A stretch of 10,872 nucleotides of DNA, from IMG/VR virus record IMGVR_UViG_2609459844_000005, positions 1-10,872 of that record; one strand, 5' to 3'. The position numbers are program-made. Positions 3,001 to 6,000 of this stretch are shown here, in pieces (positions within the stretch are counted from its first letter, which is position 1; every line of letters starts with the position of its first letter). The DNA comes from a virus. Taxonomy: Duplodnaviria > Heunggongvirae > Uroviricota > Caudoviricetes.

Positions 3001-6000
3001 TTGCGCATTGATGCCGAGATACGCTTCCAGTCTTCGCGGTCGTTGTCGATAACTTCATTTTTTGCCCAGCGATGGATGCTGCCGTCAATGTTTCCGGCAT
3101 CCACATCACCAGGCCAGAGAGCGTAGGCCAGTTCGTCATCCAGTGTTTTCCATGTCTGCTTGTATTCGCGATGAATGGCAGCAATGACCGGGTTGATTTT
3201 TCCTGTTGAATTTTCAGTGTGCTGTTGATTGGTTCTGGCGCGGGCGAGATCAACAACAGACGTGTATTTTCCAGTTTCCTTGCGTTCACCTTCGCGACGT
3301 TTTTTCCAGATGCGCATCTCTGCCTGAATTTCGGGCCATTTGGCACCAGGCTTACATTTATGCTTAACCCACCCGATGGCATGCAGCTTAAGCTCCGGAT
3401 ACATGGCGTTAACATCTGGCATTTTCATCAACGCTTCAACGATATGTCCGTCGAATGTTGCCATGTCTTCCTGCAACAATTCCTGTGCGCTAATAACCAT
3501 ATCAACGGTGATGTTTTCACATGTGTCGAACTTAACCATGACAGCGTTCTGTACTTCAGGGGCCAGCTTGTCAAAAGTGACGTTCATCGGATCGGATTCA
3601 GTCTCAACCGGGACAAAGGAAGCAGACTCCTCATCCCAGCGGTTTTCCTGCATATATTCAGCATCCCAGGAATCGAGGGCAGGGCGGGGTATACCGGGTT
3701 TATCCTCGCAAACAAGAAATTTATAAGCGCAGTCCTGAGCAGCCGGATAATGTTCCAGGAATTGCCAGTGAAATTTTGCTCGAGCACGGCGTTCGTCGCC
3801 AGCTTCAATGGCAGTGGCTACAGCGACTGCACCTTCTTCCTTTATTGCCTGTTCGTCCGGAATGGCGGCGCAAATAAAGACTTTACTCATTTTGTTTTAC
3901 CTCATTACAGATTTAAGGGTGAACAAATCCCTGCCATTGCTGGCATATAAGAATGAAATCGGATGTTTATTACGGAACTGTTTTAAAGACCTGCCGGGAT
4001 TTCGTTATTATCCTGGTGAATAACTTTATCGACCGGGTAACAGTTACCGGGAATTTTCTGTTCGGTTGCTGCAGTCACACACTCCTGCATTGTCCTGTGA
4101 ACACTGACTGCAATATCAACTGGCTCTCCGGAAACAAGAAAAACTGTCAGAACAAGTGCAAATGCTGTATTCATTGCCAGCATCCTTTTTGTATCGGACG
4201 TAAACGGGCCAGCATTGAAAGAATGCATATTTTATTTAATAGCTCCCGTTCGTGTTTTCTCTTGTTAATGGCATCTTCAGTAAATACAGGGTTACTGATA
4301 GTGACACCAATTTCAAAACAACCTTCAGACGTATTAACGTTTGGTAATAACGTTTCCATTATCGCGTCCTCAACAATGAATTTTGTGATGCGGTGCCTGG
4401 TGCCTCCAGGTGACGTTAACCAGTTAACAATTAACGCCGGATAACTCCGGATGGTTGGATAAGCTGTAGTGAGCGAATGCCGGATACCAAAACAGCCGTT
4501 CTTGTTGCCAGGGAGTTTGACAGGAAAGGTGACTGGCGAATGAAATGGGCGACTTACATCCCGGGTCATCCTGACGCTAATGATGGGTGGATAATACCTG
4601 GTGCGTCGTGGATACCATCACACTGGATGCCTCTACCAGAACCGCCGCAGGAGGTGCGCCAATGAACTGGCCTGAAGCATTTGCAATTACAGGCGTTGCT
4701 ATGGCTATCGCTTTTTTAGTATATGTTATTTGTCGGTGGGGGTAAAAACGTTCGCCGGGATTAACACCAAAGGAGGGAATATGTCGGATGATATATCACT
4801 GGCAATGGAAGGTGCGCTGGCTGTTGTTGCTGTTGTGGGCGTTTACTGCCTGGTTGTGTTTTTGATGGATCGACTAGGGAACTGAATTCATTACGATATG
4901 GGAATTCCCATATCGGGTAAAAACGGTTTGCGGTAAAGCGAGAGTTAAGTAGAATTGCAGCGGGTGCTTGAGGCTATCTGTCTCAGGCATGAACACCAAA
5001 AGGCAGATAGAGAAAAGCCCCAGTTAACATTACGCGTCCTGCAAGACGCTTAACATTAATCTGAGGCCCAATCTATGTCTCACAAATGTAGGTTAGCCTC
5101 TTACGTGCCGAAAGGCAAGGAGAAGCAGGCTATGAAGCAGCAAAAGGCGATGTTAATCGCCCTGATCGTCATCTGTTTAACCGTCATAGTGACGGCACTG
5201 GTAACGAGGAAAGACCTCTGCGAGGTACGAATCCGAACCGGCCAGACGGAGGTCGCTGTCTTCACAGCTTACGAACCTGAGGAGTAAGAGACCAGGCGGG
5301 GGAGAATCCCTCGCCACCTCTGATGTGTCAGGCATCCTCAACGCACCCGCACTTAACCCGCTTCGGCGGGGTTTGTTTTTTTCTGGCATTCTGGTTTACA
5401 ATTCGCACACCAGCCTGAACAACTGGCACCTGCTGCGCCAGCAGAGACAACCGATGGCGCACGATACCAAATTACACAATTCTGATGATTCTGCCGTCTT
5501 TGCCAGCAGGCACGGGCGGCGTTCCCGCACTTTCAAATCTGACTGGTTCCAGCATCCCCCATGCACTGAAGAACAGGCCGAGTGGCTAATTCAGTGCTAC
5601 CGCAGACACGGATACGAGATTAAGAAAGCCCTCAGCCTCGATTATCGTCACTGGATAATCTCCGTCAGGCTTCCTTACTCCGAACGCCCACCGCGTCCGT
5701 CCCGCACATTCCAGCAACGCATCTGGAGGTAACGTGCGGGTATTACTTCGACCTGTTCTGGTACCGGAACTCGGGCTGGTGATCGTTAAGCCGGGCCGTG
5801 AATCCATGCCGGTATTCCACAATACCCGGGTACTGGTGGAGCCGGAACCGAAAAGCATGCGTAATCTGCCGTCCGGGGTCGTTCCTGCCGTTCGCCAGCC
5901 GCTGGTGGAAGACAAAACATTGCTGCCGTTTTTCAGTAACGCACGGGTAATTCGTGCTGCTGGTGGTGCTGGTGCATTGTCTGACTGGCTGTTGCGCAAT

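What the first reader, a model, noticed from the sequence alone, without database searches (positions are those of the whole stretch)
4894..4915. Perfect 22-bp palindrome between the micro-ORFs and the hok leader
CGATATGGGAATTCCCATATCG is an exact palindrome centred on GAATTC. With no U-tract it is unlikely to be a terminator; its length and perfect symmetry suit a dimeric DNA-binding protein site or an RNA processing or stability hairpin at the start of the hok transcript. Nearby there are also 9-bp direct repeats TTAACATTA (5050-5058 and 5027-5035) flanking a short GCGTC/GACGC hairpin.
Basis: seen in the sequence. Interest (0 to 1): 0.4.

Follow-up and report, generated by a model that had tools for sequence, protein, structure and literature searches.

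The report
Orphan palindrome from a KilA-N gene
The perfect 22-bp palindrome is real but does not belong to the hok toxin transcript: it is what remains of a KilA-N/BstA-like phage-defence gene that sits at this spot in related prophages, and it preserves a symmetric DNA element that this gene family maintains inside its coding sequence and that also turns up alone in unrelated phages.

Summary
The palindrome CGATATGGGAATTCCCATATCG is at 4894-4915, exactly as reported. It is unique in the window and far beyond chance.

It is not in the hok mRNA. The Rfam hok-leader model starts at 4962, which puts the palindrome at -68 to -47, upstream of the hok promoter. About nine in ten hok loci of this family lack it, including hokW of phage 933W.

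Its origin is clear. In E. coli strain 222 a complete 257-aa KilA-N/BstA-like gene lies antisense, directly upstream of hok. Window 4883-4915 is 30/33 identical to codons 58-68 of that gene and reads DMGIPIS**IQ on the minus strand.

Within this gene family the dyad is maintained at the nucleotide level:
- All synonymous positions in the arms are fixed.
- At least seven arm variants arose by compensatory changes (covariation 0.38 against 0.12 in shuffles).
- Unrelated proteins containing DMGIPIS do not show this codon pattern.

Orphan copies also occur between cro and cII, after a C5-methylase gene, and in the origin-like region of about 60 virulent Dhillonviruses. None of these has a linked KilA-N gene.

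Best reading (inferred): a symmetric recognition site for KilA-N proteins that persists here as an orphan, possibly acting as a decoy like the aba element. A neutral deletion relic is the main rival.

The parts
4894..4915 (.). Perfect 22-bp palindrome CGATATGGGAATTCCCATATCG. It is identical to the dyad element embedded in KilA-N/BstA-like genes, where it encodes (R/S)-D-M-G-I-P-I-S.
   Evidence: establish presence and chance level. Searches show nucleotide-level conservation and covariation in KilA-N genes.
4882..4915 (-). Relic of a KilA-N/BstA-like gene. The minus strand reads DMGIPIS**IQ, against DMGIPISELIQ in the intact gene.
   Evidence: tblastn and local alignment to the 257-aa gene. 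Window 4883-4915 is 30/33 identical to codons 58-68 of the intact gene, which lies antisense upstream of hok in E. coli strain 222.
4781..4885 (+). Micro-ORF2, 34 aa and hydrophobic (MSDDISLAMEGALAVVAVVGVYCLVVFLMDRLGN). Its stop codon is 8 nt before the palindrome. It is not tied to the palindrome.
   Evidence: RefSeq annotates the homologue as a hypothetical protein. Homologues of this ORF lie next to hok without the palindrome in other loci.
4662..4745 (+). Micro-ORF1 (MNWPEAF...CRWG). In 933W its homologue abuts the hok promoter block directly.
   Evidence: Alignments.
4740..4750 (+). First copy of the 11-bp direct repeat GGGTAAAAACG. It marks the left edge of the 175-bp segment (micro-ORF2 plus relic) that 933W-type loci lack.
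   Evidence: (repeat family D6).
4915..4925 (+). Second copy of GGGTAAAAACG. It starts at the last base of the palindrome. Homology to all hok loci begins here (TAAAAACGG, about -44).
4928..4955 (+). Inferred hok promoter: -35 TTGCGG at 4928-4933, a 16-bp spacer, and -10 TAGAAT at 4950-4955.
   Evidence: Read from the sequence relative to the Rfam start at 4962. It falls below the threshold of the simple promoter scan. This is inferred, not mapped.
4962..5137 (+). hok mRNA leader (Rfam RF01794), including the Sok-target hairpin with the TTAACATTA repeats at 5024-5032 and 5050-5058.
   Evidence: (120.1 bits, E = 1.6e-28, model positions 1-157).
5075..5287 (+). mok (5075-5287) with hok (5132-5287, 51 aa) nested in it. 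RefSeq annotates the homologue as HokD.
5013..5083 (-). Sok antisense RNA, placed by homology to the sokW annotation of phage 933W.
   Evidence: with coordinates transferred through the alignment. Inferred.
5357..5380 (+). hok terminator: CCCGCTTCGGCGGG followed by a T-run. Just upstream, 5336-5348 is the 3' partner of the 5' end of the mRNA.

Best explanation
**What it is (shown).** The palindrome is not a hok/sok element. It is the surviving 33-34 nt of a KilA-N/BstA-like prophage gene. In related lambdoid prophages this gene sits on the opposite strand immediately upstream of hok. Deletions removed the rest of the gene and left the fragment at the seam between a micro-ORF cassette and the hok promoter block.

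The fragment is exactly the part of the gene that carries a dyad-symmetric element. The gene family maintains this element at the nucleotide level inside the codons for (R/S)DMGIPIS. It has an invariant GGGAATTCCC core and lineage-specific arms that change by compensatory substitutions.

**How it most likely works (inferred).** The dyad is a sequence-specific recognition site for a symmetric binder. The best candidate is the KilA-N DNA-binding domain of the protein the gene itself encodes, because that is the only factor that co-varies with the site across phyla.

A copy detached from the gene would still bind that protein. During lytic replication the copy is amplified and could titrate a BstA-like abortive-infection protein made by a co-resident prophage. 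That is the way the aba element neutralises BstA. The window's copy would then be an orphan immunity or decoy site. It has no role in hok expression.
For: **Position.**
- Rfam RF01794 starts at 4962, so the palindrome lies at -68 to -47.
- 933W hokW lacks it, and homology begins at TAAAAACGG.
- In E. coli complete genomes the palindrome junction occurs at 1,084 places in 633 genomes. The hok leader occurs at 9,987 places in 4,537 genomes.

**Origin.**
- In E. coli strain 222 the intact 257-aa gene is antisense and directly upstream of hok. Window 4883-4915 matches its codons 58-68 at 30/33, in the same orientation.
- Other hok-linked types keep longer relics, up to 38/44 nt.
- The protein has a KilA-N domain (PF04383, 4e-27) and a BstA-like C-terminal half (PADLOC, 3e-21). 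In phage PhiR5_2 it lies next to cI, which is the position of bstA.

**Nucleotide-level selection.**
- In samples chosen by protein similarity or by a degenerate DNA pattern, KilA-N genes always use GAT/CCC/ATA(/TCG).
- In the metagenome sample, 8 of 9 distinct contexts passing the KilA-N filter use GAT/CCC/ATA. The one exception (L604) is not a KilA-N gene. Only 5 of 28 other open frames encoding DMGIPIS do so (Fisher p = 2.5e-4).
- 27 distinct homologues show at least 7 arm variants with the symmetry preserved. Nine of 11 pairs have changes on both sides. The covariation score is 0.381, against 0.122 +/- 0.020 in shuffles (0 of 500 reach it) and at most 0.10 in slid controls.

**Function independent of the gene.**
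- There are 172 stand-alone copies in 73 contexts. Only 2 have a KilA-N ORF within the locus.
- These include a relic between cro-like and cII-like genes, a site between a C5-methylase gene and a terminator, and the origin-like region of about 60 virulent Dhillonviruses. One Dhillonvirus genome checked in full has no KilA-N ORF.
- In the relics the flank has decayed while the 22-mer is intact: 3 changes in the adjacent 6 nt including two stop codons, and 6 of 22 changes in the longer relic.

**Precedent.** The aba element is a DNA element inside the bstA locus. It suppresses its cognate BstA only when present in high copy (PMC8585504).
Against: - No binding or phage assay exists for this sequence. 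The binder is inferred only from co-conservation.
- The one mapped aba element (phage BTP1) is a 63-bp sequence at the start of the gene with CCCGCC direct repeats. BTP1 bstA has no such palindrome.
- Compensatory changes fit an RNA or DNA hairpin as well as they fit a protein site.
- The hok-linked copy is dispensable. Most hok loci lack it.
- Degenerate versions persist: a 1-nt arm deletion in EPSSH018 and at least 9 IMG/VR loci, a centre change in L236, and a truncated left arm in L272. Some Dhillonviruses have two uncompensated changes.
- E. coli prophages are young, so perfect identity among the 633 genomes says little about selection.
- Deletion end-points lie at or within 1 nt of the palindrome's edge. 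This could mean the palindrome caused the rearrangements rather than being selected afterwards.
Confidence: 0.45

Rival explanations
1. Neutral deletion scar. The fragment is simply what was left when the KilA-N gene next to hok was deleted. It has no present function and looks conserved only because these prophages diverged recently and because the source genes all carry the same 22-mer.
For: - The intact gene sits at the same place in strain 222.
- The palindrome is absent from about 90% of hok loci.
- Degenerate variants persist in lineages.
- Most of the 633 genomes are at least 99% identical across the junction.
- Flank differences could partly be allelic differences between source genes rather than decay.
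Against: - At least four independent relic contexts keep a perfect 20-22-mer while their flanks carry stop codons or are only about 73% identical: hok types A/B/C, hok type E, the cro-cII site, and others.
- The same 22-mer occurs alone in phages that share no other sequence with this locus, such as Dhillonvirus and the methylase context.
Confidence: 0.3
2. Recombination hot spot. The palindrome forms a hairpin or cruciform that provokes breaks or replication slippage. Mosaic joints therefore pile up at its edges, and it survives as the joint itself.
For: - Homology to other hok loci starts within 1 nt of its right edge.
- The 11-bp direct repeat GGGTAAAAACG that brackets the 175-bp extra segment begins at its last base.
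- Different left contexts join 0-14 nt from its left edge.
- Teewinot has hybrid repeat units in which the left arm is exchanged.
- A fold-back contig is centred on the palindrome (L525).
Against: - This does not explain why KilA-N genes keep the dyad by compensatory changes.
- It does not explain why the exact sequence recurs in unrelated phages.
- A 22-bp palindrome is short for efficient cruciform extrusion or SbcCD cleavage (general knowledge).
Confidence: 0.12
3. RNA hairpin at the 3' end of the upstream micro-ORF transcript. It would stabilise, process or insulate that RNA and shield the hok promoter from read-through.
For: - The RNA folds as a 9-bp stem with an AAUU loop. The 71-nt context has MFE -22 kcal/mol and z = -4.0.
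- It lies 8 nt after a stop codon here.
- It lies about 20 nt after a stop codon in Dhillonviruses, and between a gene end and a true terminator in the methylase context.
Against: - There is no U tract and it is not called a terminator.
- A hairpin would not need the same 22 bases in unrelated phages.
- G.U-type and A.C-type centre variants are equally common on the sense strand, so there is no strand bias of the kind an RNA element would give.
- The sequence derives from the antisense strand of a gene.
Confidence: 0.08
4. Operator or activator site that regulates the hok promoter. The palindrome centre is at -57.5.
For: It is located just upstream of the inferred -35, and its perfect dyad symmetry is typical of operators.
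Against: - Most hok promoters of the family work without it, including hokW.
- In the E-type loci 19 extra bp separate it from the promoter, so the helical phasing is not kept.
- The same sequence sits in contexts that have nothing to do with hok.
Confidence: 0.05

Closest known systems
aba (anti-BstA) self-immunity element of the bstA locus (Owen et al. 2021, PMC8585504)
   Same: Both are short DNA elements physically embedded in a prophage defence gene of the BstA family, which has a KilA-N-type N-terminal domain. aba elements differ between variants in a cognate way. aba acts as DNA, needs high copy number, and works in trans. The palindrome here has lineage-specific arms around a constant core, and it lies inside a gene whose C-terminal half matches BstA.
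   Different: The only mapped aba element (BTP1) is 63 bp, spans the start codon, and depends on terminal CCCGCC direct repeats. It is not a palindrome, and BTP1 bstA has no such dyad. The palindrome lies at codons 58-65 inside the KilA-N domain. It also occurs in KilA-N genes with other C-termini and as orphan copies far from any such gene. No functional test exists.
hok/sok (hokW, hokD) type I toxin-antitoxin locus
   Same: The palindrome is the immediate upstream neighbour of a complete hok/mok/sok cassette. The cassette has a leader, a Sok target, the fold-back pairing of the mRNA ends, and a terminator.
   Different: The palindrome is outside the Rfam-modelled transcript, is absent from most family members, and is variably spaced from the promoter.
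Binding sites that lie inside the gene of the protein that binds them (lambda ori iterons inside gene O; the HK022 Roi site inside roi)
   Same: Both are dyad-symmetric DNA embedded in the coding sequence of a phage DNA-binding protein. The amino-acid sequence and the site are then co-constrained. This comparison rests on my own knowledge of these systems, not on a tool result.
   Different: Binding by the encoded protein has not been shown here. There is a single site rather than an array. Orphan copies spread to other genomes.
Intrinsic terminators and REP-type intergenic palindromes
   Same: Both are GC-cored hairpin-forming sequences in intergenic DNA just after a stop codon.
   Different: There is no U tract. 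Copy number is 1-5 per genome and always in the same kind of locus. The sequence is identical across unrelated phages, rather than structure-only conservation.

Membership tests
hok/sok regulatory elements | Lies within the hok mRNA or Sok RNA, as covered by Rfam RF01794 and the fold-back pairing of the mRNA ends. | tested here: not met
   The model matches 4962-5137 and the palindrome ends at 4915. The 5'/3' pairing partners are 4962-4973 and 5336-5348.
hok/sok regulatory elements | Conserved in homologous hok loci. | tested here: not met
   It is absent in 933W hokW. It is present at 1,084 of about 9,987 hok-leader places in E. coli. Degenerate variants exist.
Intrinsic (Rho-independent) terminator | A GC-rich hairpin followed by a U tract. 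| tested here: not met
   The hairpin is present. No T-run follows on either strand, and the scan does not call it.
KilA-N/BstA-like gene fragment (pseudogene relic) | Sequence homology to the gene that extends beyond the palindrome. | tested here: met
   30/33 identity to codons 58-68 of the strain 222 gene. The minus strand reads DMGIPIS**IQ. E-type loci match at 38/44 nt.
KilA-N/BstA-like gene fragment (pseudogene relic) | An intact gene at the orthologous position in related genomes. | tested here: met
   In E. coli strain 222 the KilA-N gene (WP_000200358.1) is antisense and directly upstream of hok in a lambdoid nin region.
aba (anti-BstA) element | A DNA element located within a bstA-family locus. 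| tested here: inconclusive
   The parental copy lies inside a gene with a BstA-like C-terminal half. In PhiR5_2 that gene sits beside cI. The window's copy is an orphan, with no such gene in the window.
aba (anti-BstA) element | Sequence or architecture like the mapped BTP1 aba: 63 bp at the gene start with terminal CCCGCC direct repeats. | tested here: not met
   There is no similarity. BTP1 bstA lacks any comparable palindrome.
aba (anti-BstA) element | Suppresses the cognate BstA protein when present on replicating DNA. | not testable with these tools
   This needs phage plating and induction assays.
Lambdoid nut site (boxA + boxB) | A boxA (CGCTCTTA-like) a few nucleotides upstream of a short stem with a GNRA-like loop. 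| tested here: not met
   No boxA-like sequence lies in 4800-4894. The loop would be AAUU on a 9-bp stem. One orphan copy in Siccibacter does lie downstream of a boxA-like CGCTCTTTAACAA between cro and cII, but that is a single case.
Dispersed repeat (REP/MITE-like) | Many copies scattered through one genome in unrelated intergenic sites. | tested here: not met
   There is one copy in the window. E. coli genomes have 1-5 copies, always in the same prophage locus type.

The most novel reading that the evidence does not exclude
KilA-N/BstA-like abortive-infection genes carry their own cognate recognition or immunity site as a covarying palindrome written into the codons of the KilA-N domain. Phages capture this site without the gene, as an orphan decoy that disarms the defence protein. 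These include the lambdoid prophage in this window and virulent Dhillonviruses, which sometimes carry several copies. The window's palindrome would then be a stand-alone anti-defence DNA element.
Probability: 0.3. Interest if true: 0.85.

Novelty: new variant of a known kind. Interest (0 to 1): 0.6.

Why it matters
For this window alone, the result removes a false lead. The palindrome does not control or belong to hok/sok. It is a gene relic at a mosaic joint.

The wider finding is that a large family of phage and prophage KilA-N genes keeps a dyad-symmetric DNA element inside its reading frame. The constraint is strong enough to fix rare codons and to drive coupled amino-acid changes. The same 22-mer also lives on alone in unrelated phages.

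I found no description of this in the literature available here. How the aba element of BstA systems works, and what KilA-N domains bind in bacteria, are both open questions. This sequence gives a concrete ligand that can be synthesised. It also offers natural variants (arm swaps, orphan copies, copy-number differences in Dhillonviruses) with which to test these questions directly.

Tried and rejected
1. **RelB/DinJ antitoxin motif.** I first took the coding contexts of the palindrome for this motif, which was tempting because hokD follows relBE in K-12. Translation of the full ORFs and Pfam showed they are KilA-N genes.
2. **The published aba element.** Rejected for BTP1. aba is at the start of the gene and unrelated in sequence, and BTP1 bstA has no dyad.
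3. **Operator flanking KilA-N genes.** Rejected. Only 2 of 178 stand-alone copies have a KilA-N ORF in the same locus.
4. **A phage-encoded KilA-N protein as the binder in Dhillonviruses or in this prophage.** No KilA-N ORF is present in the KarlBarth genome or in the window.
5. **nut/boxB site.** There is no boxA in the window. Only one orphan copy elsewhere sits near a boxA-like sequence.
6. **Known RNA family.** Rfam at permissive thresholds finds only the hok leader in 4400-5600. It finds nothing at the orphan copies in three other loci.
7. **Literature.** Searches for the sequence itself, for KilA-N binding sites, for Roi/HK022, and for follow-up work on aba gave nothing relevant.
8. **Identifying the methylase-context loci.** Megablast of that context against isolated phages and E. 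coli genomes found nothing. Those loci come from other enterobacteria and were not identified further.
9. **Frame error.** An early ORF extraction used the wrong reading frame and was redone.
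Full report
**1. The observation**

The sequence CGATATGGGAATTCCCATATCG occupies 4894-4915 and is a perfect 22-bp palindrome centred on GAATTC. It has no second copy in the window, even allowing three mismatches, and none appeared in 200 shuffles. It is the longest perfect palindrome in the 10,872-bp window. A palindrome of 22 bp or more appeared in 0.25% of 2000 simulated windows, matching the analytic expectation of 0.0026. No T-run follows it on either strand, and the terminator scan ignores it. As RNA it would form a 9-bp stem with an AAUU loop.

One detail in the finding is off. The TTAACATTA repeats are at 5024-5032 and 5050-5058. They belong to the conserved Sok-target hairpin of the hok leader.

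**2. The setting**

The window is a lambdoid prophage of the E. coli type. Its features, in order:

| Coordinates | Strand | Feature |
|---|---|---|
| 1-1119 | - | integrase |
| 1419-3890 | - | 823-aa exonuclease-like protein |
| 3953-4665 | + | 163-aa ORF (no Pfam match) and a DUF551 ORF |
| 4662-4745, 4781-4885 | + | two micro-ORFs |
| about 4962-5380 | + | hok/mok/sok cassette |
| 5734 onward | + | DUF968, RusA, antiterminator Q, an N6/N4 methylase |
| 9662-9911 | + | three tRNA genes |

The Rfam model of the hok leader (RF01794) matches 4962-5137 end to end at 120 bits. Its first bases, GGGUGCUUGAGG, can pair with CCUCAACGCACCC at 5336-5348. This is the fold-back pairing of hok mRNA ends as I know it from the hok literature; the complementarity itself is read. 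A TAGAAT hexamer lies at 4950-4955.

The hok transcript therefore starts at about 4962, and the palindrome lies at -68 to -47, outside it. This removes the reading "hairpin at the start of the hok transcript".

**3. It is not a hok element**

- Phage 933W, whose hokW/mokW/sokW are annotated, aligns with the window only from TAAAAACGG (4918) rightwards. Its upstream micro-ORF abuts that block directly.
- Relative to 933W, the window has an extra 175 bp containing micro-ORF2 and the palindrome. This segment is bracketed by the 11-bp direct repeat GGGTAAAAACG at 4740-4750 and 4915-4925.
- In 5,426 complete E. coli genomes, the hok leader of this family occurs at 9,987 places in 4,537 genomes. The palindrome-plus-junction occurs at 1,084 places in 633 genomes.
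- Among loci picked only by the hok promoter sequence, several upstream types exist. Some have no palindrome. Some have a micro-ORF2 homologue but no palindrome. The E type has the palindrome 19 bp further from the promoter.
- Degenerate versions occur: a 1-nt deletion in the left arm (strain EPSSH018 and at least nine viral contigs), a centre change (L236), and a truncated left arm (L272).

**4. Where the sequence comes from**

Exact searches for the core of the palindrome gave far more hits than chance allows:

| Search | Collection | Hits | Chance expectation |
|---|---|---|---|
| 20-mer core | one genome per species | 82 stretches across many phyla | about 0.5 |

The two chance figures are my own order-of-magnitude estimates, taken as collection size divided by 4^18 or 4^20. 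They are not tool outputs, and the size of IMG/VR was assumed.

Most non-E. coli hits lie inside one gene family, in the codons for D-M-G-I-P-I-S. The E. coli member is a 257-aa protein with two parts:
- a KilA-N domain (PF04383, residues 14-112, E = 4e-27);
- a C-terminal half that matches the BstA defence protein (PADLOC, 3e-21; 32% identity to BTP1 st313-td/BstA).

In phage PhiR5_2 this gene lies directly after cI. That is where Owen et al. found bstA (PMC8585504).

The hok-linked palindromes carry more of this gene than the palindrome itself:
- On the minus strand the window reads DMGIPIS**IQ.
- The B-type loci read DMGIPISE*IQ.
- The E-type loci match the gene at 38 of 44 nt.

The decisive case is E. 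coli strain 222. There the complete gene (WP_000200358.1) lies on the opposite strand immediately upstream of hok, in the same kind of nin region. Window 4883-4915 is 30/33 identical to its codons 58-68, in the same orientation and on the same side of hok. The palindrome in the window is what remains of that gene.

**5. The palindrome is a maintained element of the gene family**

*Codon choice.* I used two kinds of sample that do not condition on codon choice: protein-pattern searches and a fully degenerate DNA pattern for DMGIPIS. In these, KilA-N genes always use GAT, CCC, ATA and mostly TCG, even where neighbouring synonymous sites vary freely. Only the central pair varies (GGA/GGG, ATT/ATC). 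In the metagenome sample, 8 of 9 distinct contexts passing the KilA-N filter use GAT/CCC/ATA. The single exception (L604) is not a KilA-N gene. Unrelated open frames that happen to encode DMGIPIS do so in only 5 of 28 cases, and several of those five are probably non-coding orphan copies (Fisher p = 2.5e-4).

*Compensatory changes.* More divergent homologues keep the symmetry with different arms:

| Peptide | Dyad |
|---|---|
| DAGIPAS | CCGATGCGGGAATTCCCGCATCGG |
| SMGIPID | GAGGTCTATGGGAATTCCCATAGACCTC |
| SMGIPMD | GGTCCATGGGAATTCCCATGGACC |
| STGIPVD | AGGTCAACGGGAATTCCCGTTGACCT |
| ETGIPVS | CGAAACGGGAATTCCCGTTTCG |
| ETGIPVS (purely synonymous ACC/CCG pair) | CCGAAACCGGAATTCCGGTTTCGG |

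On 27 distinct sequences, 9 of 11 pairs show changes on both sides. The covariation score is 0.381, against 0.122 +/- 0.020 in shuffles (0 of 500 reach it) and at most 0.10 when the partners are slid.

Two caveats apply. The structure was read from these sequences, and the sequences are related. One homologue (L693, with GLP instead of GIP) has no dyad.

**6. Orphan copies elsewhere**

Outside KilA-N ORFs I found 172 stand-alone copies in 73 sequence contexts. Only two have a KilA-N ORF anywhere in the fetched locus. The clearest cases are:

- **Between cro and cII.** A relic reading DMGIPISD*IQRF lies between cro-like and cII-like genes in Siccibacter and in a viral contig.
- **After a methylase gene.** A copy lies between the 3' end of a C5-methylase gene and a canonical terminator, in many enterobacterial prophage contigs.
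- **Dhillonviruses.** About 60 isolated virulent Dhillonviruses carry the exact 22-mer. It lies about 20 bp after the helicase-primase stop codon, between GCGCGCATTGGTTGC iterons. An AT-rich stretch and GCGGGACA repeats follow, so the region looks like a replication origin.
  - Copy number varies there. PNS1 has two copies. Teewinot has five units, four of them with the left arm replaced.
  - Envy and Sloth have two uncompensated changes.
  - The Dhillonvirus KarlBarth has no KilA-N ORF, and neither does the window.
- **An array.** An Alcaligenaceae MAG has at least four different GGAATTCC-core palindromes within about 110 bp.

**7. Interpretation**

*Shown:*
- the position of the palindrome relative to hok;
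- that hok does not need it;
- its origin as a KilA-N gene relic;
- nucleotide-level selection and covariation of the dyad in the gene family;
- independent orphan copies.

*Inferred:*
- The dyad is a recognition site for a symmetric binder.
- That binder is the KilA-N domain itself. It is the only factor that travels with the site across phyla and whose variants could match the arm variants.

The nearest precedent is aba. This is a DNA element inside the bstA locus that neutralises the cognate BstA when it is amplified on replicating DNA (PMC8585504). Under that model the window's copy is an orphan immunity or decoy site.

*Against this:*
- The mapped BTP1 aba is unrelated in place and form.
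- A hairpin would explain the covariation equally well.
- Degenerate orphans persist.
- The deletion end-points hug the palindrome, which suits a recombination-scar explanation.
- The young age of E. coli prophages makes identity uninformative.

I put about 0.85 on the origin, about 0.45 on the functional recognition-site reading overall, and about 0.3 on the specific decoy model. Neutral relic (0.3), recombination hot spot (0.12), RNA 3' hairpin (0.08) and hok operator (0.05) are the rivals.

**8. Novelty**

The window feature by itself is a pseudogene remnant. The element it preserves seems not to have been described. This is a covarying palindrome written into KilA-N codons, with orphan copies in phages. 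Literature searches for the sequence, for KilA-N binding sites and for follow-up work on aba returned nothing. It is closest to aba but differs in position, architecture and distribution. I therefore rate it a new variant of a known kind. The interest lies mainly in the testable link to BstA-type defence.

Noticed in passing
window 4740-4750 and 4915-4925: An 11-bp direct repeat, GGGTAAAAACG, brackets a 175-bp segment (micro-ORF2 plus the KilA-N relic) that 933W-type hok loci lack. The second copy starts at the last base of the palindrome. This suggests gain or loss of the segment by recombination between short repeats at the base of the hairpin.
   Followed up: partly
window 1607-1624: A second perfect palindrome, GGCAGGGGATCCCCTGCC (18 bp), has a GGGGATCCCC core. 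It lies inside the 823-aa exonuclease-like ORF on the minus strand. About 4% of simulated windows reach 18 bp. The core resembles the GGGGATCCCC centre variant of the main palindrome seen in other loci.
   Followed up: no
window 1-4440, compared with L002 1-5000: In the window, the integrase and an 823-aa protein with an Rv2179c-like 3'-5' exonuclease domain are followed almost directly by nin-region genes. Close relatives such as strain O17_K12a instead have the immunity and replication genes (LexA-like repressor, cro, replisome organiser) upstream of the same DUF551/hok block. Homology to those relatives starts at window 4437. The prophage therefore looks rearranged or deleted.
   Followed up: partly
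L706 (E. coli strain 222, NZ_CP020516.1), locus 2820-4241: The full-length KilA-N/BstA-like gene and hok are divergently arranged about 340 bp apart in a lambdoid nin region. In phage PhiR5_2 the homologous gene instead sits beside cI. The same defence-type gene thus occupies two different moron positions.
   Followed up: partly
L699-L704 (Dhillonvirus phages rolling, KarlBarth, PNS1, Teewinot, Gluttony, Envy), intergenic region after the helicase-primase gene: This is an origin-like region. It has three GCGCGCATTGGTTGC iterons, an AT-rich stretch, and at least seven GCGGGACA repeats, with the palindrome between iterons 1 and 2. The palindrome unit is duplicated in PNS1 and present as five units in Teewinot. 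Four of the Teewinot units are hybrids in which CATTTT replaces the left arm.
   Followed up: partly
L146 2520-2720 (Alcaligenaceae MAG); also L200, L074, L191: Several different palindromes share the GGAATTCC core within about 110-200 bp, for example GTGAAACGGGAATTCCCGTTTCAC next to TCGATATGGGAATTCCCATATCGA. The array lies in non-coding DNA upstream of an 806-aa ORF. It looks like an array of arm variants of the same element.
   Followed up: partly
L443, L448, L480, L484, L492 and about 20 other viral contigs: The palindrome, with a GGGGATTCCC or GGGAATCCCC centre, follows the 3' end of a C5 cytosine-methylase gene or pseudogene (...PPFAEALVRANLPEMCEQREQAA*). A canonical terminator, GGGCCTCTTCGGAGGCCTTTTT, comes after it. 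These contigs are nin regions of non-E. coli lambdoid prophages, and the host genera were not identified.
   Followed up: partly
L525 (metagenome contig JACCDU010429860.1): The contig reads the same KilA-N N-terminal coding sequence on both strands, mirrored at the palindrome centre. This is a long fold-back, probably an amplification or assembly artefact seeded by the palindrome.
   Followed up: no
L204 (Siccibacter colletis), about 7560-7680; viral L026: An orphan copy of the palindrome lies between a cro-like and a cII-like gene. It is nested in a longer imperfect inverted repeat (GACGGTAAATCGT...ACGATTACCGTC) and lies downstream of a boxA-like CGCTCTTTAACAA. This is the position where nutR would be expected.
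   Followed up: no
window 5024-5058: Relative to the Rfam consensus, the hok leader here carries an extra inner hairpin, GCGTCCTGCAAGACGC, in the loop of the Sok-target stem. The same insertion is present in 933W hokW.
   Followed up: no
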